Below, in pieces: positions 1 to 13,245 of a stretch of 64,000 bases of DNA. Within the stretch, counting starts at the first letter, position 1; each line of letters begins with the position of its first letter. The stretch comes from Paracoccaceae bacterium (GTDB taxonomy: Bacteria > Pseudomonadota > Alphaproteobacteria > Rhodobacterales > Rhodobacteraceae): positions 1,853 through 65,852 of the forward strand of contig CANIKY010000003.1 in assembly GCA_947468085.1 (NCBI GenBank). Reading direction: 5' to 3'. The position numbers and the translations under genes were made by a program. The notes under the pieces were generated by a model. It was not told the origin of the DNA and searched no databases. It was given only the letters and a program-made list of their open reading frames with translations.

Positions 1-375
1 GAATGCGCCCCGCAGATTCAACGCGGCTATGACCCAACGGATGACCTGCTGCAGGTTTGGCCCGTCCATGGATTGGCTGGCGTGGAACGCGCTTTGACCG
101 AGGTGCTGCGTGATCAGATCAAGCCAGATATGGTCTATCTGCAATGGGAAATGATCCTTTCGGCGGCCAATTTGGGGCTGGATATGATCGCGCTCTCGCA
201 TGCCGAGGGGGTCAAAATTGATGCTTGGACCCATCACATGGAAAACCCCATCGTAGGGTTCAGCCCCGCCGAAGGTGCTGAATTTGCCAAGCTTTTGGCA
301 CTAAAGCCCGACCAGATCACCACCGACGAACCCATTGCAACCGAGGCCGCTTGGGCCGCATGGAGCGCGCTATGA
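1..375 (+). CDS. Glycerophosphodiester phosphodiesterase (GDPD) family protein, C-terminal part (5' end outside window)
   Basis: Frame 1 is open from base 1 to TGA at 373-375. The C-terminus 'VKIDAWT...LLALKPDQITTDEP' is typical of the last strands of the GDPD barrel. Confidence 0.7.
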   Translation, partial: ECAPQIQRGYDPTDDLLQVWPVHGLAGVERALTEVLRDQIKPDMVYLQWEMILSAANLGLDMIALSHAEGVKIDAWTHHMENPIVGFSPAEGAEFAKLLALKPDQITTDEPIATEAAWAAWSAL

Positions 376-1445
376 AATCATGGTCCGACACCCCGCAAAC
401 TCGGCTGGTAGAACGGCTTAAACCTGTACCGGCCCCCTTGCGCGCCCATCTGCGCGAAGGGCCCTTTACCTTTGCGCGCCATGACGCTGCCTTTGATGAA
501 CTGCCCGCCCTGCGCGAGATTGAAAAGGCTGGCCCCGCGCCAAAGCGCGAGGAGTTGACAGGGGCTGCCAAGTTAATCTTTTGGAACGTGGAGCGTCTGC
601 GCCATCTGGACGCCATTGCTGCCCACCTGCAAGACCAAGCTGCTGATGTGATCTTGCTGTCCGAAGTGGATCGCGGCATGGCGCGCACAGGCAACAGTGA
701 CCGGATCGCGACCCTGTCGGACCGCTTGGGGTTGGGCTATCTTTTTGCAGTGGAGTTTGTCGAGCTTGACCTTGGCGATGTGCACGAACAACGCACGCAT
801 GCGGGCGAGCAGAACGTTGAGGGCTTGCATGGGGCGGCCATCTTGTCGGATGTGGTCTTGCACACACCCGCCCTAATCCGCCTTGAACGGCGTGGCAATT
901 GGTATGGGCTTGACCGCCACGAACCCCGCATCGGCAGCACGATCGCGCTGTTGGCTTGGGTGAAGATCGACGGTGAGCGGGTGCTGATGGCCAATGTCCA
1001 TCTGGAAAGCCATGAAACCCCCGCCTCACGCGGTGAAGATATGCAAAATCTTTTGAATATGATCGAAACCTTGGCCCCCAAAGGTCGGGTGATACTGGGC
1101 GGTGATTTCAACACCTCAACCGCATCGCATGGCGCGCGGTACGGCGACCCCACAGGCTGGGCCGCACGGCTGGCGGCTGAACCCCTGCGTCTGTTGCGCC
1201 CCGAACCTTACGAGCCGCTGTTCGCGGCTGCGGCTGCACTTGGGTATGAATGGCAGTCCTGCAATCTGCCCGATCAGCCCACCACGCGGTATCCTGCAGG
1301 ATCATCCCGCCCACCCGCCAAGATCGACTGGGTCTTTACCCGCAACCTCAAGGCCCGCGACGTGGCCCTGCTGCACGCGGTGCAACCCGATGGCACGCCT
1401 GCCAGCGACCATGAGGGCTTGGTGGTGACCATCACTTTGGCCTGA
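372..1445 (+). CDS. Endonuclease/exonuclease/phosphatase (EEP) family protein
   Basis: Motifs WNVE, LSEVD, NVHLES, GGDFN, KIDWVF, SDH. ATG at 372 overlaps the upstream stop (ATGA); the ORF track starts at 351. Confidence 0.9.
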   Translation: MKSWSDTPQTRLVERLKPVPAPLRAHLREGPFTFARHDAAFDELPALREIEKAGPAPKREELTGAAKLIFWNVERLRHLDAIAAHLQDQAADVILLSEVDRGMARTGNSDRIATLSDRLGLGYLFAVEFVELDLGDVHEQRTHAGEQNVEGLHGAAILSDVVLHTPALIRLERRGNWYGLDRHEPRIGSTIALLAWVKIDGERVLMANVHLESHETPASRGEDMQNLLNMIETLAPKGRVILGGDFNTSTASHGARYGDPTGWAARLAAEPLRLLRPEPYEPLFAAAAALGYEWQSCNLPDQPTTRYPAGSSRPPAKIDWVFTRNLKARDVALLHAVQPDGTPASDHEGLVVTITLA

Positions 1446-1459
1446 TAGGCCAAAGGGGT

Positions 1460-2782
1460 TCAGCCCACAAAGATCGGATTGGTGACGGCGTGCAGCCTGC
1501 CCGTGGCATCGCGCAATTCGGCCATGACAAAGCCCTCAGCGCCCACGAACTCTGCCCGTCCAGCAGCATTGGCTGCGGCGGGGTGATGGCTTTGCACCCC
1601 TTTTGCGTCGACAAAGCTGAGAGTCAGGGCAACGTCCTGTGACTGCCAGTCGGCTTGAAAGACAGCGCCTTGGTCTGTCGTCTCGCCCATGGCGGCCAGC
1701 CCGCCTTGCGCGGACTGCGCCTGCAAAATCAGCCGGGGACCCGAGGACAGGTAGTTTCGCCCCGCCTGAACCGCTTGCAAAACAGCCAAGGCTGTCAGGC
1801 CATCGGCCTCGACATGGTTAAAGCCCACCTGCCCCACGCCGCCCTCTGGCCCGTGGATATCACTTCCCGCCGTGGCACGCAGGCGGTGGCCTTGGGCAAG
1901 CCACTGGCGATACAGCGCCAACCCTTCTTCGTTGTAATCCGACCAAGGGCCGCCATTCCAGATTTCGACCAATCCGGCATTGCCCGGGCGCATATCGTCA
2001 TATTCCCATCGACAGCCTGTGCAGGCCGGATCGCCGGGCGACATCGGGTGGGCGATGACAAAAAGCCCGCCTTTGCCCATGATATCAGCCGCAAGCATCG
2101 GCATGGTTTGCCCCGTCACCGGCCCCACTCGCCATTGTGGCAGATGTTCCACCCCCAAGGCCACAGCATGGCCCCAATGGGTGGTCAACTCCATCCCACC
2201 CAGCGTCAGCAAATCATCGCCCGCCATGGAATGCACTTCGGCATGGCCAGAGGTGGTGTTGTGATCCGACAAGGTCATGAAATCCAACCGGCGCGCGCGT
2301 GCCCAAGCGACCAGATCGGCGATAGACCAACTGCCGTCTGAATGCAGCGTATGGGCATGCAGATCGCCGCGATACCAGCCACGGCCCCGCGCTTGGGTCT
2401 TGGCTGCGATAAAGGCGGGTTGGGCGGGGACGGGGGTGGTTTGGCAATCGATTTCGACCACGTAGTCAATTCGGCCCATCACGCGGAAACAATCCAAGTA
2501 CAGCGTCCAAGTGCCCGGTTCGATCGCGCCGGGCAGATAGCCCGGCGTGGCCGACGTTTGCGAAATCGCAAAGTCCCAGACCGGATTGTTATGCCGCGCC
2601 CCGCGCGGGCCTGCGGGGCCAAACAGGCTGAGCGAGATCATATTGTCAAAAAATGCCCCCGCTTCGCGTTGTGGAGAGGCTTTTAAACGCACGACCAGTT
2701 GGGTTGTGCCTTCAGGTACTTCAAAGGTCAGGGGCACATGGGCCTTGTGATGGCTCGCATCAAGTTGTCCGGTCAGGGTCAT
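1460..2782 (-). CDS. PHP-domain metallohydrolase (CehA/McbA-like) with N-terminal accessory domain
   Basis: PHP metal-ligand motifs GDLHAHTLHSDG, SDHNT, GMELTT, AHP, EIWNG, GSDIHG. Confidence 0.88.
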   Translation of the reverse strand: MTLTGQLDASHHKAHVPLTFEVPEGTTQLVVRLKASPQREAGAFFDNMISLSLFGPAGPRGARHNNPVWDFAISQTSATPGYLPGAIEPGTWTLYLDCFRVMGRIDYVVEIDCQTTPVPAQPAFIAAKTQARGRGWYRGDLHAHTLHSDGSWSIADLVAWARARRLDFMTLSDHNTTSGHAEVHSMAGDDLLTLGGMELTTHWGHAVALGVEHLPQWRVGPVTGQTMPMLAADIMGKGGLFVIAHPMSPGDPACTGCRWEYDDMRPGNAGLVEIWNGGPWSDYNEEGLALYRQWLAQGHRLRATAGSDIHGPEGGVGQVGFNHVEADGLTALAVLQAVQAGRNYLSSGPRLILQAQSAQGGLAAMGETTDQGAVFQADWQSQDVALTLSFVDAKGVQSHHPAAANAAGRAEFVGAEGFVMAELRDATGRLHAVTNPIFVG

Positions 2783-3840
2783 GCTGTGGCTCCGGCGGTT
2801 TGGGCGGGAAGGGGGGATTGGGCGAGGCCGATCAGCATCCCGTCGCGAAAGGCATGCAAGCGGCGAGGCAGCAGGGTTAGAAGGCGGCCAAGATCAGGGG
2901 CTTGGTCGCGCGGGCAGGTCCATGTGATCAGGTCGCCCGCCTCGGTCATCAGGTTGACCTTGGTCACAGGGCCAAGGTCGATCACCCGCGTCACGCGGGC
3001 GGCGGCACCCTTGGCGTCAAGGTAAAGATCCTCAGGCCGGCAAAGAAGCGCCACTTCGCCGTCAGGCAGCGGCAGGCGCAGGTCTAGGCCATACCAATCC
3101 GCAGCCCCTTGCCGCAGCGTGGTGGTGCAGGTGTTCATCGCGCCGATGAACTGCGCCACACCCAAAGTCGAGGGGTTTTGATACAGCGCTCCGGGCGGGC
3201 CCACCTGTTCCACGCGGCCGCCCTGCATCACCACGATGCGGTCGGCCAGTTCCATCGCCTCTTCTTGGTCATGGGTCACAAAGATTGTGGTCAGGTCCAA
3301 GCGGCCCTGCAACGCCTTAAGCTCTTCGCGCAATCCCTTGCGCAGATGGGCGTCAAGGGCCGAGAAAGGCTCATCCATCAGCAAAACCTTGGGCTCCACC
3401 ACCAAACACCGCGCCAAGGCCACGCGTTGGGCTTGCCCGCCCGACAATTCCGCGGGAAGGCGTTTGGCAAAGGCAGCAAGCCCCACCAGATCCAGCACGG
3501 CGGCTGTCTTGGCGGCGATCTCGGCCTTGGGCAAGCCGCGCACGCGCAGGCCAAATCCCACATTCTGCGCCACACTCATATGCGACCACAAAGCGTGGCT
3601 TTGAAAGACCATCGCTGTTGGGCGGCGGTTGGCTTGGGTGGCAGTCATATCAACACCTTCGATCCGGACAGACCCGCTGTCAGAGCCGGTCAGGCCCGAG
3701 ATGATGCGCAGCAAGGTCGACTTACCGCAGCCCGAAGGCCCAAGCAGGCACACCAACTCGCCCCGCGCCACCGCAAAAGAGGCGTCGCGCACGGCGGGGG
3801 TGCCTTGGTACATCTTCGTGATGGCGTCAATCTGCAGCAT
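2779..3840 (-). CDS. ABC transporter ATP-binding protein (PotA/MalK-like, C-terminal TOBE)
   Basis: Walker A GPSGCGKS, signature LSGGQ, Walker B LLMDEPFSALD, VTHDQEEA. ATG at 3840 chosen over the TTG at 3852. Confidence 0.95.
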   Translation of the reverse strand: MLQIDAITKMYQGTPAVRDASFAVARGELVCLLGPSGCGKSTLLRIISGLTGSDSGSVRIEGVDMTATQANRRPTAMVFQSHALWSHMSVAQNVGFGLRVRGLPKAEIAAKTAAVLDLVGLAAFAKRLPAELSGGQAQRVALARCLVVEPKVLLMDEPFSALDAHLRKGLREELKALQGRLDLTTIFVTHDQEEAMELADRIVVMQGGRVEQVGPPGALYQNPSTLGVAQFIGAMNTCTTTLRQGAADWYGLDLRLPLPDGEVALLCRPEDLYLDAKGAAARVTRVIDLGPVTKVNLMTEAGDLITWTCPRDQAPDLGRLLTLLPRRLHAFRDGMLIGLAQSPLPAQTAGATA

Positions 3841-3841
3841 G

Positions 3842-4642
3842 TCAGGCTCCAAACCCTTGGGCGATGCCCTTTGAGGTCATAAATCGGCGGCTTAGCAGCA
3901 TTAAAACAAAACACGGTACCCAGATCAGCACGCACAGCACCGCCGCCTCTTGCACGATGACTTTGGAGGATAGGGTCATCAGCAACAAAGGCATAGTGGT
4001 GACAGTGGGCGCGCCAATCAGAAGGGCGCTGTCGACCTCGAACAAGATCGAGACAAAGCCCAACACATAGCTTGCCGCCAGTGCGGGCATGGCCTGCGGT
4101 AAGGTGATGAACAAAAACACCCGCAGGCGTGATGCGCCAAGGTCAAATGCAGCTTCTTCCAGCGCAGGCGGGATGCCGCGAAAGGCGGCGGTGGGGATCC
4201 AGATCATGAACAGCACGGCTGACAGCATCTGCACCACCACCACGCCCCAGAAATTGCCGACCAACCCCAACTTCAGGAAGATCACCGCGATTGACACAAA
4301 CAGCGCAAACTTCGGCACGGCTTGGGCGGCGATAAAAGAAAACAGCAGCAGTTGGCGGCCGGGGAATTTCAGCCGTGCAAAAGCATAGGCCGCAGGCCAG
4401 CAGATCAGCGCCGCCGTGGTCGTGGCAATGGATGTCAGCGCCAACGAGGTCAGCACCGGCGTGATCACCGTCTCGCGCCCAAGCATCGCAAACCAGTATT
4501 TCAGGCCCCATTCCGTGGGCAACAAATGCGGGTAGCGCCATTTGACGGTAAAGGCCCATAAAACCACCGTCAAAATCGGCCCAAGCATGGCAAGGCCCAA
4601 GCTGCCAAGCAGAATCAATCCGCCAAAGGGTGTCCGTTTCAT
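3842..4642 (-). CDS. ABC transporter permease (PotC-like)
   Basis: Hydrophobic TM segments; EAA loop 'LEEAAFDLGAS'. Start at 4642 overlaps the upstream stop (ATGA). Confidence 0.92.
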   Translation of the reverse strand: MKRTPFGGLILLGSLGLAMLGPILTVVLWAFTVKWRYPHLLPTEWGLKYWFAMLGRETVITPVLTSLALTSIATTTAALICWPAAYAFARLKFPGRQLLLFSFIAAQAVPKFALFVSIAVIFLKLGLVGNFWGVVVVQMLSAVLFMIWIPTAAFRGIPPALEEAAFDLGASRLRVFLFITLPQAMPALAASYVLGFVSILFEVDSALLIGAPTVTTMPLLLMTLSSKVIVQEAAVLCVLIWVPCFVLMLLSRRFMTSKGIAQGFGA

Positions 4643-5532
4643 CGCGCACCTGCCGAGGATTTGACCATCGTGGCAATATAAAACCCACCAACGATGGACG
4701 AGATCACCATCAGCACCACCGCCTGCACTTGGGCGGATGCCGGATCGTGTAGATTGCCCAAGGTGCGCTGCATGAAGACGCTCATCATCTCGGGTGCGGG
4801 CGGGCCAAGCATATAGGGCACGGTAAAGGCGCCGATGATGCCCATGAAGATCAGCGCAAAGGCGATCAGCAGCGAACGGCGCATTTGCGGCAACAAAATC
4901 TCCCACAGGATGCGGGGGGCTTTTGCGCCAAGGTCGCGCGCCGCCTCGACAGCGTGGTCAGAGACTTGCGAAAGGCCAGCGCTAAGAACCAGAACCGGCA
5001 GGGGAATATTCTCCCACACAAAGGCCAGAAAGGGACCAACGGGGGTTAAATAGGGCGTACGGTACTGGGTGAAGCCCACCTGTTCCAGCATCAGTTGAAG
5101 CAACCCGTTCGGCCCCAAAAACCGCACCAAAGCGTAAGAAATGATGATCGAGGGCACGAACAGTGGAAAAAGGGACAGGCCGTGGATCATCGTAGCGATC
5201 CGTCCGGCGGAAAAGCGCAGGTATAGGGCTAAGCCAAAGGAAATCCCCAAGGCCGCCAAGGCCGACACCAATCCCATTTCCAGCGTATAGCGCAGGTTGG
5301 CCATGGTGTAGGCATCGTTGAAAAAGGCAAAATAGCGTTCAGGGCTCAGAGTGCCGTCAACTAAGACAGTGGCCGTAACCATCCGCACTGTCGGCCATAA
5401 GATCAGCGTGACCAAAAGCCCCACCGGCAGGGCCACAAGCGCAAGACCGGCCAAGGCTTGAAAGCCATGGCCGGTGCGCTGGGTTTGTCCGGGGGCGAGG
5501 CCCCCGGACGGTTTTGTGATGTCAAGCATCAA
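4639..5532 (-). CDS. ABC transporter permease (PotB-like)
   Basis: TM segments; EAA loop 'VEAARDLGAK'. Confidence 0.92.
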   Translation of the reverse strand: MMLDITKPSGGLAPGQTQRTGHGFQALAGLALVALPVGLLVTLILWPTVRMVTATVLVDGTLSPERYFAFFNDAYTMANLRYTLEMGLVSALAALGISFGLALYLRFSAGRIATMIHGLSLFPLFVPSIIISYALVRFLGPNGLLQLMLEQVGFTQYRTPYLTPVGPFLAFVWENIPLPVLVLSAGLSQVSDHAVEAARDLGAKAPRILWEILLPQMRRSLLIAFALIFMGIIGAFTVPYMLGPPAPEMMSVFMQRTLGNLHDPASAQVQAVVLMVISSIVGGFYIATMVKSSAGAR

Positions 5533-6671
5533 TCGCGAACGATGTTGGTGGCAACGTTCTTGTACCAGCCGTCATTCTTGGCAGTCTGCCAATCGCCCGA
5601 AGGGAAGGTCGGGATCGAAACCGGGATCACGTCGATGTATTCTGCCTTCAGATCTGCCGGCAGATTGTCCCACGAAATTCCGGGGAAGCCGCCGATATCG
5701 CGCACGCACGACGTTTGGGTTTCGGGCGAGAGCATAAAGTTCGCCAAGGCCAAAGCGCCTTCCAGATCGGTTGCGTTGGACGGGATGGCCGAATAAGCAA
5801 AGCCACCGCACAAAGCCAGATCCTGCAACTGCACGACCTTGACGGTTTCGGGCAGACCGCCGTTGTTGATGGCCTGCAAGGCCATATCCGACCAAGCCGG
5901 GATCATGTCGACAGCGCCCTGTGCCAAAAGTTGCAGCGCGGGGGAGTTGCCGGCGGGATAGGTGCCTTCGCCAAAGGTGAAGGGGTGCAGGTCCTTCAAG
6001 ATGGCCCAGCCCTTTTGCAGCATCTCTTCGGCCTTGGCGGCTTCGAAGTTGTCTTTTGTGAAGGCTGCGGGATCTTGACCATTGGCTTCGTGGATGGCGC
6101 GGATCACGAAGTTCGACCCCGAACCACCTTTGTCGGGGCGGCCATAGGTGAAGCGGCCCGGATTGGCCTTGGCCCAAGCGACGAGGTCGGCAAAGGTCTT
6201 GGGCGGGTTGGCAACTTTGGCGCTGTCATAGGCGATCAGAACCTGGCTGCCGCGATAGGGCAGGCGGATCGGGGTTTGAACGGCGGCGGGGTTGATCATC
6301 TTCAGATTCGGCACATTGGAGTCTGCAGTTTCCAGCCAAAGGCCAGCCTCGACCGAGCCTGCAACCGATGCGGGCTCAATTTCCTCAAAATAGTCGACCT
6401 GCGGGTCAGCCTTGGCCTGCAAAGCGGCCAAAGCACGCTCGGCGATCGTGCCGTTGCCGTCGGCCACGCCGCGGGTGATGGTCACATTGAACGTGTGGCC
6501 GGGATTGGCAGCCTCAAACGCGGGCTTCAGGATATTGTTCCACCAATCAGAGATATTGGTATCCCCGTCGATGTAAACTTGCAGGGTCTTGATGTCTGCC
6601 GCGGAAACGCGGGTGGACACAAGAGTGGCAGCAGCGGCCGAAGTGGCCAGAAATTGACGACGCGACAACAT
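5529..6671 (-). CDS. ABC transporter substrate-binding protein (PotD/YnjB-like), Tat signal peptide
   Basis: N-terminus MLSRRQFLATSAAAA..VSA is a twin-arginine signal; SBP motifs 'PPKTFADLVAWAKANPGRFTY'. Start reassigned to ATG 6671. Confidence 0.9.
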   Translation of the reverse strand: MLSRRQFLATSAAAATLVSTRVSAADIKTLQVYIDGDTNISDWWNNILKPAFEAANPGHTFNVTITRGVADGNGTIAERALAALQAKADPQVDYFEEIEPASVAGSVEAGLWLETADSNVPNLKMINPAAVQTPIRLPYRGSQVLIAYDSAKVANPPKTFADLVAWAKANPGRFTYGRPDKGGSGSNFVIRAIHEANGQDPAAFTKDNFEAAKAEEMLQKGWAILKDLHPFTFGEGTYPAGNSPALQLLAQGAVDMIPAWSDMALQAINNGGLPETVKVVQLQDLALCGGFAYSAIPSNATDLEGALALANFMLSPETQTSCVRDIGGFPGISWDNLPADLKAEYIDVIPVSIPTFPSGDWQTAKNDGWYKNVATNIVRD

Positions 6672-6723: not shown

Positions 6724-6774
6724 GTAACTTTGCGATGACGCTGTGGTGAACCTTGGATGACGCCTATGTGACGC
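6724..6774 (-). promoter_or_regulatory. Tandem Pho-box-like array (five half-sites at 11-bp period)
   Basis: Minus strand reads GCGTCAC-ATAG-GCGTCAT-CCAA-GGTTCAC-CACA-GCGTCAT-CGCA-AAGTTAC, 53-103 bp upstream of the SBP ATG. Resembles the PhoB consensus CTGTCAT-N4 repeats. Confidence 0.72.
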
Positions 6775-6922: not shown

Positions 6923-9769
6923 ATGCCAAAAATAACTTGTATAACAACGACATATAACGAAGGCGAATTGCTTTTGACGGCGGTAGAATCTGTTTTGAAC
7001 CAAAGTTTTGCCGATTTCGAATATCTGATTATAGATGATGGATCTTCAGAAGAAACGCTTGAAATTCTAGGCCGCTTGTCCGACCCACGGTTGAGGGTCA
7101 TCCGGCAGGCCAACGCCGGTTTATCCGCTGCGCGCAACGCCGGTATAGCACTGGCTCTGGGCGATTATATCTGTTTTTTAGATGCCGACGATTTGCGCCC
7201 GAATTGGTCCTTTGCTGCAATAGCCTCCGTCATTGATGCCGCGCAACCTGATCTGGTGCTGTGCCCCGGAATGCTGTGTGACCTGCGCGGTCAGGTTGAA
7301 GATTTTTATGATGCAGCGGTCTTTAGGCAGATTGCAGAAATCCTGCCGGGTGGGGTAAGTGAACGGCGCGATCCAAAACATACCCAACTTTGCGTCTTGG
7401 CGCAGCAGCTAGAACCGCAATCCGCCAACAAAGTGGTGCGACGATCGTTTTTAAGGGCAGCAGGGCTTCGCTTTCCTGCGCCCTATTTTTTTGAAGACAT
7501 ATTTTTCCATACCAATGCCATCGTTCAGGCCGATCGCATTGTCATTCTTGACTGTCCGGCCTTTACCTATTTTCACCGTTACCAACGGCGTCAAATTACC
7601 ACGACTGCGGGCGAATTGCGCTTTGACATTCTTGCCGTAGTGAAGTTGACGCTCGACGCCTTTGCGCTGCGACCAGAGTTCGGCAATTTGGCCTACCGAG
7701 GGGTTGTTTTCGCCAGTTGCCTAAAACTGATTGATTGGTGTGAAAACTGCCTGGGGCATCCACTACGCGCGGCCTTTCGGCAAAATGTCCAAGAGATGAT
7801 GGCGTCGTTACACTCAGGATTTAGTGAGATTCAGTGTGATCAAGGCTTACATCCTGCCTTTTTGACACCGCTCTGCCGACATCTTGGTATTTCAGAAGAA
7901 CGGGTGGGGCAGATGTACGTTAAACCACTGAACTTGGTTCAAGAACACCAAGTGGCCACTCCGTTTGGAAACCAAATTTTCGATCCTGACGAGCGGATCG
8001 AAGTGCAAGCATTTGGGCAAACTATTTCTATCCTTGCGCCCAAGATTGACTTTCTTCGAACAGATTCTTTCTACAGATTACGCCATATTTATCAACCGGC
8101 CCTCGCTGCGCAAACCTTGGCGGTTGAAGGTGTCGCTTTGGATATTGGCGCAGGGTTTGGCGTTTTCGCGCTGCCTTTTGCATTGGCTTACCCTGGGTGG
8201 AAGGTCTTTTGTTTTGAGCCCGATCCAACAGCCTTTGCATTCTTGCAAAAAAATATCTGCGATTTGGCACTGAGCCAAATCACCGCTTTGCCCTTTGCCA
8301 TCGGCCATCAAATAAGGGGCGGGCAGCAGGAAGAAAAAGCCGTCGAGGCGGCTTTGAGGCAGTTGATGTTCGATCCAAGCGCTCAGGTCGACAGGCTAGC
8401 GGCCTTGCTGCCCTTAATTGAACATAGTAAGTCAAAGATAAATATAGGGTATTTAGAGCGGGGGCACAACGCATCGGCAGAGTTCGACGTTGTCCAAGTG
8501 CCCACTCTTGCCGCCCAGGCGCTGGAAGTTTTAGCGCCGTCTTTGGTGAAACTCACTGCGCCCAAGGCGGAGGCTGAAATTCTTTCTGACCTGTCGCAGT
8601 CAAAGATTGATCATGTGATTGGTGAAAGCTGGCAGCATATACCGTCCGCTATCATCCATGCGCCGTCTAGGGGTTTGCGTCAAACTTGGATACCTCGTGC
8701 GGGACAATCTAAATTTGGGTTGCGCAGGTCAGTTGATTCGGCGGGCAAGTCATTAAGCTTGGATGTTGTTCTTGCGTTGCCCTTCGTTGGTAATGTCGAT
8801 TTTGCGTGGATTGCAGGACTGTTGTCTGATCCATCAAAAGACATAAACGTGCTTCTTGTTGGCGATAAGTTAACAAAACCCGCAGAGGCCGCAATGCAGG
8901 CCTGTTCGCGCAACGATCCACGCGTTCGCTTTTTGCATAGGCCAATCGACACGCAAGTGTCTGCTTGGAATTTTGGGCGCTTGCAATCGGCGGCCACACA
9001 TATTGCTTTTGTCGATGCGCAAAGTCGCCCGGGAAAGAATTTCTTTGCTGGCCTATTGGACCTTGCGCGTCAGACCGGGGCCGAGGTTGTGCAGGGGCCA
9101 TTTCGTTGCATTGGAGGTGACAATCTTTTGAAAATGGCTCCAAGCGTATCGAGGCAAGAAACCCATGCATCGCCCATGTCACGGTTTGAAATATTTGACA
9201 CGACCTATCACTACTGTGGCGTCTTTGAACTGATGGCAGAGCCGCCAACGATTTGGCGGCGGGTTTATCGGCGTGATTTTTTGGATAATCGGAGGATTTG
9301 GTTTCCTGATCATCTGGCGTCGACGGGTGAATTTGTTTTCCAGACGCTTAGTCTAAACAATATCCCTGATGTGCCGACTTTAGATGGTGTCATATTTTGC
9401 CGCGGCCCAAGCAAACCCGCTGGGCAGGACTTGGCCTTGTGCACCCTAGAATCGTTTAGGATTTTGCTTAATCGAGCCGGGGTCGAGGGGTGGAACGATC
9501 TTTCCCCTCTGTTTCAATCTATCGCACTCCAACTTAATGCCTGCGTGACGCATATTATTCCACAGGACACATCAGCGTTCCTTCAGGCTGCTGCGAAACT
9601 TTGGGCCTATGCCCACAAAGCCTTCGGTTCAGAGGCCTTTGAACAAGCGCCATTAGACCTGTTCGAGCCCTCAGAATTTGCGCAACAGTTCAATCGTATT
9701 ATTGCGCAGCTTGGTCCTTTGAGCACCACCCAAGCTTGGGATTTCTTAGAGCTAACCTCTGCGCTGTGA
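6923..9769 (+). CDS. Multidomain glycosyltransferase: GT2 + FkbM-family methyltransferase + second GT2-like domain
   Basis: N-terminal 'TTYNEG..IIDDGS..NAGLSAARN..CFLDADD'; central 'ALDIGAGFGVFA..CFEPDP'; C-terminal 'WNFGR..IAFVDAQ..IWRRVYRRDFL'. Confidence 0.85.
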   Translation: MPKITCITTTYNEGELLLTAVESVLNQSFADFEYLIIDDGSSEETLEILGRLSDPRLRVIRQANAGLSAARNAGIALALGDYICFLDADDLRPNWSFAAIASVIDAAQPDLVLCPGMLCDLRGQVEDFYDAAVFRQIAEILPGGVSERRDPKHTQLCVLAQQLEPQSANKVVRRSFLRAAGLRFPAPYFFEDIFFHTNAIVQADRIVILDCPAFTYFHRYQRRQITTTAGELRFDILAVVKLTLDAFALRPEFGNLAYRGVVFASCLKLIDWCENCLGHPLRAAFRQNVQEMMASLHSGFSEIQCDQGLHPAFLTPLCRHLGISEERVGQMYVKPLNLVQEHQVATPFGNQIFDPDERIEVQAFGQTISILAPKIDFLRTDSFYRLRHIYQPALAAQTLAVEGVALDIGAGFGVFALPFALAYPGWKVFCFEPDPTAFAFLQKNICDLALSQITALPFAIGHQIRGGQQEEKAVEAALRQLMFDPSAQVDRLAALLPLIEHSKSKINIGYLERGHNASAEFDVVQVPTLAAQALEVLAPSLVKLTAPKAEAEILSDLSQSKIDHVIGESWQHIPSAIIHAPSRGLRQTWIPRAGQSKFGLRRSVDSAGKSLSLDVVLALPFVGNVDFAWIAGLLSDPSKDINVLLVGDKLTKPAEAAMQACSRNDPRVRFLHRPIDTQVSAWNFGRLQSAATHIAFVDAQSRPGKNFFAGLLDLARQTGAEVVQGPFRCIGGDNLLKMAPSVSRQETHASPMSRFEIFDTTYHYCGVFELMAEPPTIWRRVYRRDFLDNRRIWFPDHLASTGEFVFQTLSLNNIPDVPTLDGVIFCRGPSKPAGQDLALCTLESFRILLNRAGVEGWNDLSPLFQSIALQLNACVTHIIPQDTSAFLQAAAKLWAYAHKAFGSEAFEQAPLDLFEPSEFAQQFNRIIAQLGPLSTTQAWDFLELTSAL

Positions 9770-10167: not shown

Positions 10168-11742
10168 ATGGTCAGTCTAGAGCAGCCAAGTGTGGCTGAT
10201 CTGTTCATCATTGGTGGTGGTATCAACGGCTGCGGGATCGCGCGCGATGCGGTGGGCCGTGGGCTGTCTGTCGTTCTGGCCGAGCAGGGCGATTTGGCGC
10301 AAGCGACGTCGTCTGCTTCCACCAAGCTCTTTCACGGTGGACTGCGGTATCTTGAGTATTTCGAGTTCCGCCTTGTGCGCGAGGCGCTGGAAGAGCGTGA
10401 AACCCTGCTCTCGGCTATGCCCCACATTTCGTGGCCGATGCGCTTTGTGTTGCCCTACCACCGCGATATGCGCTTTGAAGGCGACACGCCAACAGGTCGG
10501 CTGATGGCAACCTTTATGCCTTGGATGAAGGGGCGCAGACCGGCTTGGCTGATCCGTTTGGGGTTGTTTTTGTATGACATGATGGGTGGGCGCAAGATCC
10601 TGCCCGCCACGTGCACCCTTGACCTGCGCACTGATCCTGCGGGTGTACCGCTGCAAGCACGATTTGAGAGGGCTTTTGAATACTCTGATTGCTGGGTTGA
10701 GGATGCAAAGCTTGTCTCGCTCAATGCCCGCGATGCGGCGGAACGGGGCGCAGTTATTCTGACGCGCACCCGCGTCCTGAGTGCCGAACGTCGCGGCGAT
10801 GTATGGCATATTGTGACGCAAGGGTTAGCCGGCACACAAACCCACGCCGCGCGCGTCTTGGTCAATGTGGGCGGCCCTTGGGTCGAAGATATCATCCAAA
10901 ACGTGGCGCGCATAAATTCGCTTGAAGGGGTGCGCTTGGTGCGCGGTTCGCATATCGTCACCAAAAAGCTGTACGACCACGACCGCTGCTATTTCTTTCA
11001 AGGAACAGATGGCCGGATCATTTTCGTCATTCCTTACGAACAGGATTTTACTCTGATCGGTACGACCGACAAAGACCATCAGGGCCCGCCCGGGGATCCA
11101 TATTGTACTGATGAAGAGCGTGATTACCTTTGCGCTTTTGCCAGCCAGTATTTCGCCAAGCCTGTCAGCGCCGCTGATGTGGTTTGGACCTATTCCGGCG
11201 TGCGGCCTTTGTACAATGATGGGGCTAAATCGGCCACGGCGGCCACACGCGATTATGTCTTAAGTTTGGATGAAAACGGGCCGCCCTTGCTGAATGTGTT
11301 TGGCGGTAAGATCACCACCTATCGCCGCTTGGCCGAAGGGGCGCTGGCCAAACTAACCCCCTATTTTCCAGCGGCAAAATCGGCATGGACAGCGCGTGCA
11401 CCGCTTCCGGGTGGCGATTTTCTGGTGGGCGATGTGGCCCGCCTGACGGCAGAGTTGCAGCAAAACCACGCCTTCCTTACCCCGTATTGGGCCGCGCGTC
11501 TGATCCGCGCCTATGGGGCCGACGCGGTTATTCTGCTGCAAGGCGTGCGCAGCGCGGCTGACCTAGGCCGCGATTTTGGCGCCACCTTGACCGAGGTCGA
11601 GGTGCGATGGCTGATGGCCCATGAATTTGCCCGTGCCGCTGACGATGTTGTCTGGCGGCGCACGAAACTGGGCCTTCGGATGAACCAAGCACAAATCGCA
11701 GTGCTGGAAGAATTCATGGCGCAGGCTTACAACCAGACCTAA
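10168..11742 (+). CDS. glpD: Aerobic glycerol-3-phosphate dehydrogenase
   Basis: FAD motif IIGGGINGCG, 'ATSSASTKLFHGGLRYLE', 'GGKITTYR', 'WRRTKLGL'; GGAGG RBS. Confidence 0.97.
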   Translation: MVSLEQPSVADLFIIGGGINGCGIARDAVGRGLSVVLAEQGDLAQATSSASTKLFHGGLRYLEYFEFRLVREALEERETLLSAMPHISWPMRFVLPYHRDMRFEGDTPTGRLMATFMPWMKGRRPAWLIRLGLFLYDMMGGRKILPATCTLDLRTDPAGVPLQARFERAFEYSDCWVEDAKLVSLNARDAAERGAVILTRTRVLSAERRGDVWHIVTQGLAGTQTHAARVLVNVGGPWVEDIIQNVARINSLEGVRLVRGSHIVTKKLYDHDRCYFFQGTDGRIIFVIPYEQDFTLIGTTDKDHQGPPGDPYCTDEERDYLCAFASQYFAKPVSAADVVWTYSGVRPLYNDGAKSATAATRDYVLSLDENGPPLLNVFGGKITTYRRLAEGALAKLTPYFPAAKSAWTARAPLPGGDFLVGDVARLTAELQQNHAFLTPYWAARLIRAYGADAVILLQGVRSAADLGRDFGATLTEVEVRWLMAHEFARAADDVVWRRTKLGLRMNQAQIAVLEEFMAQAYNQT

Positions 11743-11763
11743 GAGGCACTTATCATAGGCCAG

Positions 11764-13245
11764 ATGATGACCCAAATCCTTGCTATAGATCAGGGCACCA
11801 CCTCGACCCGGTCGATCTTGTTTTCACAAGATCTGCGGCCCATCACATCGGCGCAGGAAGAATTTAGCCAGTACTTCCCCAAGTCTGGCTGGGTCGAGCA
11901 TGATCCGGCCGATCTGTGGCGCACCACGCTGTCCACCGCGCGGGCCGTTTTGGCGCGAACTGATCTTGCCAAGGTGGCCGCCATCGGCATCACCAACCAA
12001 CGCGAAACCACCTTGCTTTGGGATCGTGACACGGGCATCCCCGTGGCCAACGCCATTGTCTGGCAAGACCGCCGCAGTGCCGATATCTGCGCCGCGCTGA
12101 AAGAGGCGGGCCACGAGGCGATGATAACTGCCCGCACGGGATTGCTTCTCGATCCCTATTTCAGTGGCACCAAGATCAAATGGCTGCTGGACCATATTCC
12201 TGGCGCGCGCGCCAATGCAGAGGCAGGTAAACTGGCCTTTGGCACAGTGGACAGCTATCTGATCTGGAACCTAACCGCGGGCCGTGTTCACGCGACTGAT
12301 GCCACCAACGCGGCGCGTACGCTGATTTACAACATCAAAACCGGCACTTGGGATGCCGAAATTTGTGCTTTGTTGGGCATTCCTATGTCGTTGCTGCCGC
12401 AAGTAAAAGACAGTGCTGCCGAGTTTGGCGTGACCGATCCTGCCCTTTTTGGCAGGGCTATTCCCATTCGCGGTGTGGCTGGTGATCAGCAGGCGGCTAC
12501 AGTGGGCCAAGCCTGCTTTGCCCCCGGCATGATGAAAGCAACCTATGGAACAGGGTGTTTTGCCTTGCTTAACACCGGAACGGATATGGTTTTGTCAAAG
12601 AACCGCTTGTTGACCACCATCGCCTATCAACTGAACGGCCAACCCACCTATGCGTTGGAAGGATCGATCTTTGTGGCAGGCGCGGTTGTGCAATGGCTGC
12701 GCGATGGCTTGAAAATCATCACCACGGCGGGCGAAACCCAAGGCCTGGCAGATCAAGCCGACCCGGGGCAAGACGTTGTCGTGGTGCCCGCCTTCACTGG
12801 CTTTGGCGCTCCCTATTGGCGGCCTGACAGTCGCGGGGCGATCTTTGGCGTGACAAGGGCCACAGGAGCGCCCGAACTCGCCAAGGGCGCACTGGAAAGC
12901 GTGGGCTATCAAACCCGCGACCTATTGGAAGCGATGCGCGCCGATTGGGGCCATGGTGCCGAGGGTGTCTTGCGGGTGGATGGTGGCATGGTCGCCAGCG
13001 ATTGGGCTATGCAGTTTTTGGCCGATATTCTGGGCGCGCCAGTAGATCGGCCAGTGGTGACCGAAACCACCGCTTTAGGTGCTGCTTACCTTGCGGGCTT
13101 GCAAAGCGGCCTTTGTCCAGAACCCGCCCGTTTTGCTGAAACTTGGGTCCTAGAGCGTCGCTTTGCCCCCGCTATGCCAGCGGATCTTCGCGCTGCGAAA
13201 TACGCCCGATGGGGCAGGGCGGTTGCTGCAACCCTGATGGTTTAG
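11764..13245 (+). CDS. glpK: Glycerol kinase
   Basis: '[10 protein letters not shown]', 'GITNQRETT', 'DPYFSGTK', 'GDQQAA', 'KATYGTGCF', 'GAPYW'. Confidence 0.98.

What the first reader, a model, noticed from the sequence alone, without database searches (positions are those of the whole stretch)
1..6671. Candidate uncharacterised organophosphate-scavenging system: PotABCD-like transporter, PHP hydrolase, convergent GDPD and EEP
Seen: three different phosphoester-hydrolase folds (GDPD, EEP, PHP) surround one ABC transporter; SBP-permease-permease-ATPase-PHP have 4-bp overlaps or 1-bp gaps. Established: each fold includes phospho(di)esterases. Inference: the transporter would be annotated as polyamine/iron type but probably imports a phosphodiester or other organophosphate. 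The PHP, EEP and GDPD enzymes have no evident signal peptide (the GDPD N-terminus is outside the window) and may dismantle the substrate in the cytoplasm.
Basis: partly seen in the sequence, partly recalled or inferred. Interest (0 to 1): 0.72.

Follow-up and report, generated by a model that had tools for sequence, protein, structure and literature searches.

The report
Phosphate-starvation organophosphate import and hydrolysis locus
A freshwater Rhodobacterales bacterium carries an uncharacterised ABC importer, routinely mislabelled as a polyamine transporter, that sits behind the strongest predicted phosphate-starvation (PhoB) binding site in its genome and, in every relative examined, beside cytoplasmic phosphoester hydrolases, so it most likely scavenges an organic phosphate ester whose identity is still unknown.

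Summary
The locus holds a five-gene, translationally coupled operon on the minus strand: Tat-exported binding protein, two permeases, ATPase, PHP metallohydrolase. A GDPD-EEP gene pair converges on it.

1. Predicted phosphate regulation. Five in-phase Pho-box half-sites lie upstream of the binding-protein gene. They form the best such array in the whole 3.2-Mb genome, ahead of both pstS promoters. Pho-box pairs recur upstream of the orthologue in most of 80 related loci.

2. Conserved enzyme partners. Every related locus with enough flanking DNA (69 of 69) carries at least one phosphoesterase gene next to the transporter. GDPD is the commonest partner. The second enzyme varies by clade:
   - PHP and/or EEP in the window's clade
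   - an inositol-monophosphatase-family enzyme in the Rhizobiales-rich clade

The pattern points to import of a phosphodiester followed by two-step cytoplasmic hydrolysis, as in Ugp/UgpQ or the agrocinopine acc operon. The binding protein, however, belongs to a different, uncharacterised family; its predicted fold is nearest PhnS and TbpA.

The ligand cannot be named from sequence. Adjacency to glpD/glpK is not conserved in relatives. I found no published characterisation.

Verdict: a new variant of a known kind, of moderate to high interest.

The parts
1..375 (+). 3' part of a variant GDPD phosphodiesterase gene. The full gene is 285 aa and starts 483 bp before the window, at G000:C3:1370.
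   Evidence: PF03009 at 39.2 bits on the full protein. Catalytic H22-R23 (motif RLKWHR), E49, D51 and H64-D65 are conserved across 18 family members. No signal peptide is evident.
372..1445 (+). EEP (endonuclease/exonuclease/phosphatase fold) hydrolase, 357 aa. Its ATG overlaps the GDPD stop codon (ATGA).
   Evidence: PF03372. The model has pLDDT 95 and hits only EEP-fold structures such as TDP2 and nocturnin. E98, D245, N247, D346 and H347 are invariant in 25 homologues. Junction read.
1436..1454 (.). Inverted repeat TTTGGCC-TGATA-GGCCAAA, lying exactly between the convergent EEP and PHP stop codons.
   Evidence: Read directly from the sequence. The consensus terminator scan did not call it. 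Its function was not tested.
1460..2782 (-). PHP-fold metallohydrolase of the CehA/McbA family, 440 aa, with an N-terminal extra domain of about 130 aa. It is the last gene of the transporter operon.
   Evidence: NF038032 at 226.8 bits against a cut-off of 80. The PHP metal ligands D140, H142, H144, D173-H174, E198, H205, H245, D308 and H310 are invariant in 12 orthologues. The PDB profile search hits PHP phosphoesterases 3e0f, 9etk, 2yb1 and 7ug9. ATGA overlap with the ATPase gene.
2779..3840 (-). ABC ATPase with a TOBE domain.
   Evidence: PF00005 and PF08402. The best NCBIfam hits are PhnT2, PotA and UgpC, all below their cut-offs.
3842..4642 (-). Permease 2.
   Evidence: PF00528. ATGA overlap with permease 1.
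4639..5532 (-). Permease 1.
   Evidence: PF00528. Its start overlaps the SBP stop codon.
5529..6671 (-). Tat-exported substrate-binding protein, 380 aa, from an uncharacterised cluster-D-type family.
   Evidence: PF13416 and PF01547, plus a Tat motif. Sub-threshold match to YnjB-like PRK11622, 129.7 bits against 203. By sequence the PDB gives only weak PotD matches. The model has pLDDT 84.6 and its nearest folds are PhnS 4r6y, TbpA 2qry, FbpA, PotD, AfuA and P5PA.
6724..6774 (-). Predicted PhoB binding array of five in-phase half-sites with an 11-bp period: GCGTCAC-ATAG-GCGTCAT-CCAA-GGTTCAC-CACA-GCGTCAT-CGCA-AAGTTAC. It ends 53 bp before the SBP start codon.
   Evidence: Sequence read. The genome's own pstS promoters carry the same kind of repeat. 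The four-site score of 40.1 is the highest in the genome and exceeds the maximum of 30 shuffled genomes, 39.2. Pho-box pairs are conserved upstream of orthologues.

Best explanation
This is a PhoB-activated phosphorus-scavenging module. Under phosphate limitation the cell makes a Tat-exported periplasmic binding protein and an ABC importer that take up an organic phosphate ester, most probably a phosphodiester such as a glycerophosphodiester or a related polyol or sugar phosphodiester. In the cytoplasm the ester is taken apart in two steps. A variant GDPD phosphodiesterase cuts the diester. A second metal-dependent hydrolase, here the operon-encoded PHP enzyme and/or the EEP enzyme, removes the remaining phosphate as Pi.

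Shown here: the gene content, the translational coupling, the Pho-box array and its conservation, intact catalytic residues, and conserved co-localisation with phosphoesterases.

Inferred: induction by low phosphate, the direction of transport, the ligand, and which enzyme performs which step.
For: 1. Pho regulation.
- Five in-phase half-sites lie upstream of the SBP gene. They match the repeat type found at this genome's two pstS promoters.
- It is the best four-site array among about 6.4 million positions. Four real sites score at least 38, against 0.17 expected from shuffles.
- The other top sites precede pstS, two phnC-like ATPases and two further ABC/phosphoesterase operons, so the scan does recover phosphorus-acquisition genes.
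- In 44 of 67 related loci of at least 10 kb, the 350 bp before the SBP gene hold the locus-wide best three-half-site array, against 0.6 expected from position alone. Examples are CTGTCAT-CACG-CTGTCAT in Inquilinus and CTGTCAT-GTCG-ATGTTAC in Rhizobium.

2. Partner enzymes.
- All 69 related loci with enough flank carry GDPD, GDPD_2, EEP, PHP or IMPase-family genes within 3.5 kb, while other flanking genes differ.
- On the SBP tree, PHP/EEP (clade A, no IMPase) and IMPase (clade B) are near-exclusive alternatives next to GDPD. This fits interchangeable second-step hydrolases.
- EEP homologues elsewhere sit inside the same kind of operon (Devosiaceae), or next to a Ugp-like SBP-permease-ATPase-Metallophos operon (Mesorhizobium).

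3. Catalytic residues of all three hydrolases are conserved. None has an evident signal peptide.

4. The SBP fold is nearest to binders of organophosphorus ligands: PhnS (2-aminoethylphosphonate), TbpA (thiamine phosphates), AfuA (hexose phosphates) and P5PA.

5. Precedent. [quoted passage not shown]
Against: - No experiment supports any step. Pho boxes are predictions from a hand-made half-site score.
- The related loci share ancestry, so the counts overstate independence.
- The SBP fold group also contains polyamine and iron binders, and fold similarity (TM about 0.6) does not identify a ligand.
- In a Rhizobiaceae subclade only an IMPase-family gene accompanies the transporter. There the ligand could be a monoester.
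- A 46%-identical Agrobacterium vitis homologue has sugar-catabolic neighbours and no phosphoesterase.
- The Pho-like element upstream of GDPD-EEP is weak, with one good half-site.
- The CehA/McbA family is named after carbamate hydrolases, not phosphatases.
Confidence: 0.7

Rival explanations
1. The transporter imports a phosphomonoester, such as an inositol phosphate, glycerol phosphate or sugar phosphate as with AfuA, rather than a diester. The neighbouring hydrolases are alternative phosphatases. GDPD then serves a different, perhaps lipid-remodelling, role under phosphate stress.
For: A Rhizobiaceae subclade keeps only the IMPase-family partner. The structural neighbours AfuA and P5PA bind monoesters. 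In the window, GDPD lies in a separate convergent transcription unit with only a weak Pho-like element.
Against: GDPD is the most widespread partner. In many taxa it lies in the same operon directly after the ATPase gene. IMPase-only loci form a single derived subclade.
Confidence: 0.15
2. It is a 2-aminoethylphosphonate or other phosphonate importer of the PhnSTUV/AepX type.
For: The best structural match of the SBP model is PhnS, 4r6y. The best ATPase hit is PhnT2 and one permease hits 2-AEP permease models. A Pho box fits a phosphonate system.
Against: All of these hits are far below the equivalog cut-offs; PhnS scores 28.9 bits against 310. No C-P-cleaving gene (phnW/X/A, pbfA or C-P lyase) lies in the window's locus or in the 80 related loci. 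The conserved partners are phosphoesterases.
Confidence: 0.05
3. It is an ordinary polyamine, iron or thiamine-type importer, and the hydrolase genes are unrelated neighbours.
For: Public annotation says spermidine/putrescine. There is weak PotD sequence similarity. PotD, FbpA and TbpA are among the fold neighbours. TenA and a ribokinase lie behind the IMPase gene in R. leguminosarum.
Against: No PotD, PotF, FbpA or ThiB equivalog is matched. Phosphoesterase adjacency is conserved across phyla while other neighbours change. Pho boxes are conserved upstream. The TenA context is confined to one Rhizobium subclade.
Confidence: 0.05

Closest known systems
Ugp system with UgpQ (E. coli ugpBAECQ)
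   Same: A Pho-regulated ABC importer for phosphate esters, coupled to a cytoplasmic GDPD-family phosphodiesterase. The ATPase resembles UgpC (296 bits).
   Different: The binding protein is not a CUT1/UgpB-type protein; it is a PotD/PhnS/TbpA-like fold. The GDPD is a divergent subtype with an RLKWHR motif, only 21% identical to the genome's own UgpQ-like GDPD. There is an extra second hydrolase (PHP, EEP or IMPase). The ATPase scores below the UgpC cut-off of 432.
acc operon of Agrobacterium Ti plasmids (agrocinopine catabolism: AccA-E importer, AccF phosphodiesterase, AccG phosphatase; PMC4526662)
   Same: The same three-part logic: import of a phosphodiester, cytoplasmic diesterase, then a phosphatase. 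That AccF is GDPD-like and AccG is IMPase-like is recalled from memory and was not tested here.
   Different: AccA is a cluster-C (peptide/opine type) binding protein. The acc operon is controlled by the AccR repressor and opines, not by Pho boxes. The acc substrate is a plant-tumour opine.
PhnSTUV / AepXVW 2-aminoethylphosphonate importers (PMC8316502)
   Same: The same broad SBP fold class, with PhnS the top structural neighbour. Also a phosphorus-scavenging role.
   Different: Sequence similarity is far below the family cut-offs. No C-P bond-cleaving enzymes are nearby; phosphoesterases are present instead.
E. coli YnjBCD (uncharacterised ABC transporter)
   Same: It is the nearest named SBP family by sequence: PRK11622, E = 1e-37 over residues 144-380.
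   Different: The score of 129.7 bits is below the cut-off of 203. YnjB itself has no known ligand; a literature search found no functional study.
GpxB glycerol-1-phosphate/glycerol-3-phosphate transporter of marine Rhodobacterales (PMC12718374)
   Same: A recently discovered organophosphate ABC importer in the same bacterial order.
   Different: According to the paper, GpxB belongs to the PhnD/PhnT family. The protein here belongs to SBP_bac_8/SBP_bac_1. They are not homologous families.

Membership tests
Pho regulon operon (PhoB-activated) | Pho box upstream: at least two direct repeats of a CTGTCAT-like 7-mer with 11-bp periodicity | tested here: met
   Five in-phase half-sites lie at 6724-6774. 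The array is the top score in the genome, above both pstS promoters and above 30 of 30 shuffled genomes. It is conserved in relatives.
Pho regulon operon (PhoB-activated) | Transcription induced by phosphate limitation in a PhoB-dependent way | not testable with these tools
No culture or transcriptome is available.
PotABCD/PotFGHI polyamine importer | Binding protein and ATPase reach the PotD/PotF and PotA/PotG equivalog scores | tested here: not met
   The SBP has no PotD or PotF NCBIfam hit. PotA scores 303 bits against 482 and PotG 251.7 against 613. The PDB PotD match has E = 9e-5 over 38 residues only.
Ugp glycerol-3-phosphate/glycerophosphodiester importer | CUT1-family UgpB binding protein and UgpC ATPase | tested here: not met
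   The SBP's nearest folds are PhnS, TbpA and FbpA, not UgpB. UgpC scores 296.3 bits against 432.
Ugp glycerol-3-phosphate/glycerophosphodiester importer | Associated cytoplasmic GDPD (UgpQ) | tested here: met
   GDPD matches PF03009 with no signal peptide. It is adjacent here and sits in-operon in many relatives.
PhnSTUV 2-aminoethylphosphonate importer | PhnS equivalog score and linkage to phnW/phnX or other C-P cleavage genes | tested here: not met
   PRK15046 scores 28.9 bits against 310 and PhnT2 330.9 against 457.7. No such genes lie among the neighbours.
YnjB-type binding protein (NCBIfam PRK11622) | Score above the curated cut-off of 203 bits | tested here: not met
   129.7 bits.
GDPD (PF03009) | Pfam gathering score, plus the catalytic His-Arg, Glu, Asp and His residues | tested here: met
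   39.2 bits against 23.6. H22-R23, E49, D51 and H64 are conserved. Enzyme activity was not tested.
EEP (PF03372) | Pfam gathering score, EEP fold and catalytic Glu/Asp/Asn/His residues | tested here: met
   50.9 bits against 24.5. The model has pLDDT 95 and matches only EEP structures. Catalytic residues are invariant. No subfamily could be assigned.
PHP-fold CehA/McbA metallohydrolase (NF038032) | Curated cut-off and PHP metal-binding His/Asp/Glu residues | tested here: met
   226.8 bits against 80. The metal ligands are invariant in 12 orthologues. Substrate unknown.
acc-type phosphodiester catabolic operon | AccA-type (cluster C, PF00496) binding protein | tested here: not met
   The SBP matches PF13416 and PF01547.

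The most novel reading that the evidence does not exclude
The binding-protein family defines a previously unrecognised, Pho-controlled uptake route for a class of phosphodiesters that Ugp does not serve, for example glycerophosphoinositol or another polyol or sugar phosphodiester from eukaryotic lipids or exudates. In this reading the variant RLKWHR-type GDPD leaves the phosphate on the non-glycerol moiety, or forms a cyclic phosphate. That would explain why a second hydrolase is always retained and has been swapped between three unrelated folds (IMPase, PHP, EEP) during evolution.
Probability: 0.3. Interest if true: 0.72.

Novelty: new variant of a known kind. Interest (0 to 1): 0.6.

Why it matters
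Organic phosphorus turnover controls productivity in phosphate-poor lakes, oceans and soils. Each newly assigned transporter, such as AepXVW or GpxB, has changed which compounds are counted as bioavailable.

This family is annotated as a polyamine transporter in public databases, so omics studies of phosphorus stress would miss it or misread it. It occurs in freshwater Rhodobacterales, many Rhizobiales (often on plasmids), Rhodospirillales, Truepera and uncultured phyla.

Identifying its ligand would add a substrate to the microbial phosphorus cycle. It would also give a clean example of non-orthologous displacement among three phosphoesterase folds.

Tried and rejected
- **glpD/glpK as part of the system: rejected.** The genes lie 3.5 kb away, beyond a low-GC glycosyltransferase gene. 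They are not next to the operon in any of the 80 related loci, including 95%-identical ones.
- **Identity with the recently described GpxB G1P/G3P transporter: rejected.** GpxB belongs to a different SBP family, PhnD type.
- **Sequence search of the PDB** for the SBP, EEP, PHP and GDPD gave only remote matches.
- **EEP fold search** gave TDP2 and nocturnin at TM about 0.5, which says nothing about substrate.
- **Literature searches** for the system, for YnjBCD, and for Rhizobium pRL9 locus information found no characterisation.
- **Phaeobacter MED193 lead, unresolved.** Its Pho regulon lists a 'PotD/PotA' transporter and a PHP protein (PMC10132767). I could not fetch those sequences, so homology to this system is untested.
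- **Pho box for the GDPD-EEP unit: left undecided.** Only one strong half-site is conserved (GAAACTGTCAYGC).
- **Earlier scan notes** by sequence and by words returned nothing.
Full report
**Location and anatomy**

The window is G000:C3:1853-65852 of a 3.2-Mb, 196-contig assembly. Relatives of its proteins come from freshwater Rhodobacterales MAGs labelled Stagnihabitans, Pseudorhodobacter and Tabrizicola.

ORF listing and profile searches give a five-gene unit on the minus strand:

| Gene | Coordinates | Notes |
|---|---|---|
| SBP | 5529-6671 | Tat signal SRRQFLA; PF13416/PF01547 |
| Permease 1 | 4639-5532 | |
| Permease 2 | 3842-4642 | |
| ATPase | 2779-3840 | |
| PHP-fold protein | 1460-2782 | 440 aa; NCBIfam CehA/McbA metallohydrolase, 226.8 bits vs cut-off 80 |

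An EEP gene (372-1445, PF03372) converges on this unit. Upstream of the EEP gene is a gene whose window-internal fragment gave no Pfam hit. I fetched the 1852 bp of contig that precede the window. That showed a complete 285-aa GDPD protein (PF03009) preceded by an OmpA-like gene.

I read the junctions directly. ATGA overlaps occur at perm1/perm2, ATPase/PHP and GDPD/EEP. There is a TGATG overlap at SBP/perm1 and a 1-bp gap at perm2/ATPase. A 7-bp-stem inverted repeat (1436-1454) fills the 14-bp gap between the convergent stop codons.

**Are the enzymes intact?**

- PHP: alignment of 12 orthologues shows the full set of PHP metal ligands invariant.
- EEP: 25 homologues keep the catalytic Glu, Asp, Asn, Asp and His. 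The AlphaFold model (pLDDT 95) matches only EEP-fold structures.
- GDPD: it belongs to a divergent subtype with RLKWHR in place of the usual AHRG. It keeps the His-Arg, Glu, Asp and His-Asp catalytic positions. It is only 21% identical to the genome's second, UgpQ-like GDPD on contig C8.
- None of the three begins with a hydrophobic signal, judged from the translations only.

**Regulation**

The genome's two pstS genes are preceded by CTGTCAT-N4-TCGTCAC-type repeats with an 11-bp period. The SBP upstream region reads GCGTCAC-ATAG-GCGTCAT-CCAA-GGTTCAC-CACA-GCGTCAT-CGCA-AAGTTAC.

I scored both strands of the whole genome for four in-phase half-sites:

- This array ranks first, at 40.1, ahead of the pstS promoters at 38.0 and 35.9.
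- It also exceeds the maximum of 30 shuffled genomes, which is 39.2.
- Four real sites score at least 38, against 0.17 expected.
- The remaining top sites precede pstS, two phnC-like ATPases, a SBP_bac_6 ABC operon, and an operon of TIM-barrel, Metallophos and UgpB-like SBP genes. The scan therefore recovers phosphorus-acquisition genes.

The score is my own simple weight table, so this is a prediction and not a measurement.

**Comparative genomics**

A profile of 15 SBP homologues retrieved 80 loci from named genomes.

tblastn mapping of the window's proteins, and of partner proteins found along the way, shows that the SBP-permease-permease-ATPase core is always kept. Every locus with enough DNA beyond the core (69 of 69) has at least one phosphoesterase gene within 3.5 kb. 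The partners by group are:

| Group | Partner enzymes |
|---|---|
| Freshwater Rhodobacterales | PHP in-operon plus convergent GDPD, with or without EEP |
| Dongiaceae, Binatia, Vulcanimicrobiota | Divergent GDPD, with EEP after the ATPase |
| Truepera (Deinococcota) | GDPD_2 and PHP |
| Inquilinus, Kaistia, Labrys, Pleomorphomonas, Devosia, Alloyangia, Ketogulonicigenium, some Rhizobium | GDPD directly after the ATPase, plus a convergent inositol-monophosphatase-family (PF00459) gene |
| A Rhizobiaceae subclade | Only the IMPase-family gene |

Other flanking genes differ between these groups. Shared synteny alone therefore does not explain the pattern.

On a maximum-likelihood SBP tree the family splits into two well-supported halves. 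One half uses PHP and/or EEP and never IMPase. The other uses IMPase. This near-exclusive alternation beside a common GDPD is what non-orthologous displacement of one pathway step would look like.

EEP homologues outside the set point the same way. In a Devosiaceae genome the EEP gene is the fifth gene of an SBP-permease-permease-ATPase operon, with a GDPD-containing ABC operon nearby. In Mesorhizobium it lies divergent from a Ugp-like operon that ends in a Metallophos phosphoesterase.

The closest homologue of the window's GDPD in Rhizobium (55% identity) lies on a pRL9-type plasmid. There it converges on a CUT1 SBP-permease-permease-ATPase-GDPD-LacI-IMPase operon.

Pho boxes are conserved too. 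In 44 of 67 loci of at least 10 kb, the 350 bp before the SBP gene contain the locus-wide best three-half-site array, against 0.6 expected by position. Near-canonical examples occur in Inquilinus and Rhizobium. These loci are related, so the counts are not independent trials, but they span several orders and phyla.

The system is patchy. Only 2 of 301 sampled genomes of the window's order carry it at E <= 1e-80. In Rhizobium it sits on plasmids.

**What the binding protein resembles**

- By sequence it reaches no curated family. The nearest is the uncharacterised E. coli YnjB type, at 129.7 bits against 203. PhnS scores 28.9 against 310, and there is no PotD or FbpA hit.
- The PDB holds only remote PotD similarity.
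- The AlphaFold model (pLDDT 84.6) is closest to PhnS (4r6y), then TbpA, FbpA, PotD, AfuA and P5PA, with TM 0.55-0.65.
- Several of these bind organophosphorus ligands. This fold class also binds polyamines and iron, so the fold alone does not decide the ligand.
- Invariant Arg/Ser/Gly-rich motifs (RGSQ, YGRPDKGGSG, WSD, GGFPG) would suit anion binding. That is only an impression.

**Mechanism proposed**

Low phosphate leads to PhoB activation of the operon. The binding protein is exported by Tat and the ABC system imports a phosphate ester. The GDPD cleaves the diester in the cytoplasm, and PHP and/or EEP release Pi. In other clades the IMPase-family enzyme takes that second step.

The logic matches Ugp/UgpQ, and more closely the acc operon: importer, phosphodiesterase AccF, phosphatase AccG (PMC4526662). 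The need for a second hydrolase suggests that the phosphate stays on a moiety which central metabolism cannot use directly. That is why I rank polyol or sugar phosphodiesters such as glycerophosphoinositol among the candidates. This step is inference, and the ligand remains unknown.

**Rivals**

- A monoester ligand remains possible, given the IMPase-only subclade.
- A phosphonate importer is unlikely, because there are no C-P cleavage genes and the profile scores are far below threshold.
- A plain polyamine, iron or thiamine importer is contradicted by the conserved Pho boxes and phosphoesterase partners.
- The glpD-glpK pair at 10168-13245 looked supportive, but it is not conserved next to the operon in any relative. 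I do not count it as part of the system.

**Novelty**

I found no paper or solved structure that characterises this family.

The Phaeobacter MED193 Pho regulon includes a 'PotD/PotA' transporter and a PHP protein (PMC10132767). These may be related, but I could not test that.

I class the finding as a new variant of a known kind: a Pho-regulated organophosphate importer with cytoplasmic esterases, built on a different binding-protein family and with a swappable second hydrolase.

Noticed in passing
window 6923-9769 (+): A 948-aa GT2-FkbM methyltransferase-GT2 fusion in a stretch of about 50% GC, against about 60% in the flanking DNA. A 72%-identical copy sits in the same position next to the SBP gene in a related MAG (L006).
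   Followed up: partly
window 10168-13245 (+): glpD (NF008899, 741 bits) and glpK (NF000756, 699 bits) lie 3.5 kb from the operon. This adjacency is absent from all 80 related loci, so it is probably coincidental.
   Followed up: yes
G000:C7:30511-35500 (L099): A second high-scoring in-phase Pho-box array (38.4) precedes an operon of a xylose-isomerase-like TIM barrel, a Metallophos phosphoesterase, a UgpB-like 442-aa SBP and permeases. This is another candidate organophosphate import and hydrolysis system. It resembles the Mesorhizobium locus L090, where an EEP homologue is the divergent neighbour.
   Followed up: partly
G000:C46:3500-8900 (L098): A Pho-box array scoring 39.9, second in the genome, precedes a Tat-signal SBP_bac_6 binding protein, two permeases and an ATPase of the iron/2-AEP type.
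   Followed up: partly
L097 (Rhizobium leguminosarum plasmid NZ_CP090099.1, 281070-297864): The closest Rhizobium homologue (55%) of the window's GDPD converges on a CUT1 SBP-permease-permease-ATPase-GDPD-LacI-IMPase operon. That operon lies about 50 kb from the plasmid's copy of the SBP-family operon. The GDPD plus IMPase pairing thus recurs with a second transporter type.
   Followed up: partly
L086 (Rhizobium johnstonii 3841 pRL9, 236254-240411): Behind the convergent IMPase-family gene lie ribokinase, TenA-family, BtpA/SgcQ-family and glutamine amidotransferase genes on the same strand. This is an unexplained set confined to one Rhizobium subclade.
   Followed up: no
L089 (Agrobacterium vitis plasmid NZ_AP023281.1): A 46%-identical SBP homologue has no phosphoesterase neighbour. 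It is flanked instead by an alpha-mannosidase, a ROK protein, a sugar-phosphate isomerase/epimerase and a Gfo/Idh/MocA oxidoreductase. This branch of the family may have shifted to a sugar or polyol ligand.
   Followed up: no
window 1436-1454: A perfect 7-bp-stem inverted repeat (TTTGGCC TGATA GGCCAAA) contains the EEP stop codon and lies between the convergent EEP and PHP genes. It has no T-run, so it is not a canonical intrinsic terminator.
   Followed up: no
G000:C3:1300-1345 (L002), and upstream of GDPD in L004, L007, L010-L012: A conserved GAAACTGTCAYGC element lies 50-70 bp before the GDPD start. It has one strong Pho half-site and weak partners, so it may be a weak PhoB site for the GDPD-EEP unit.
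   Followed up: partly
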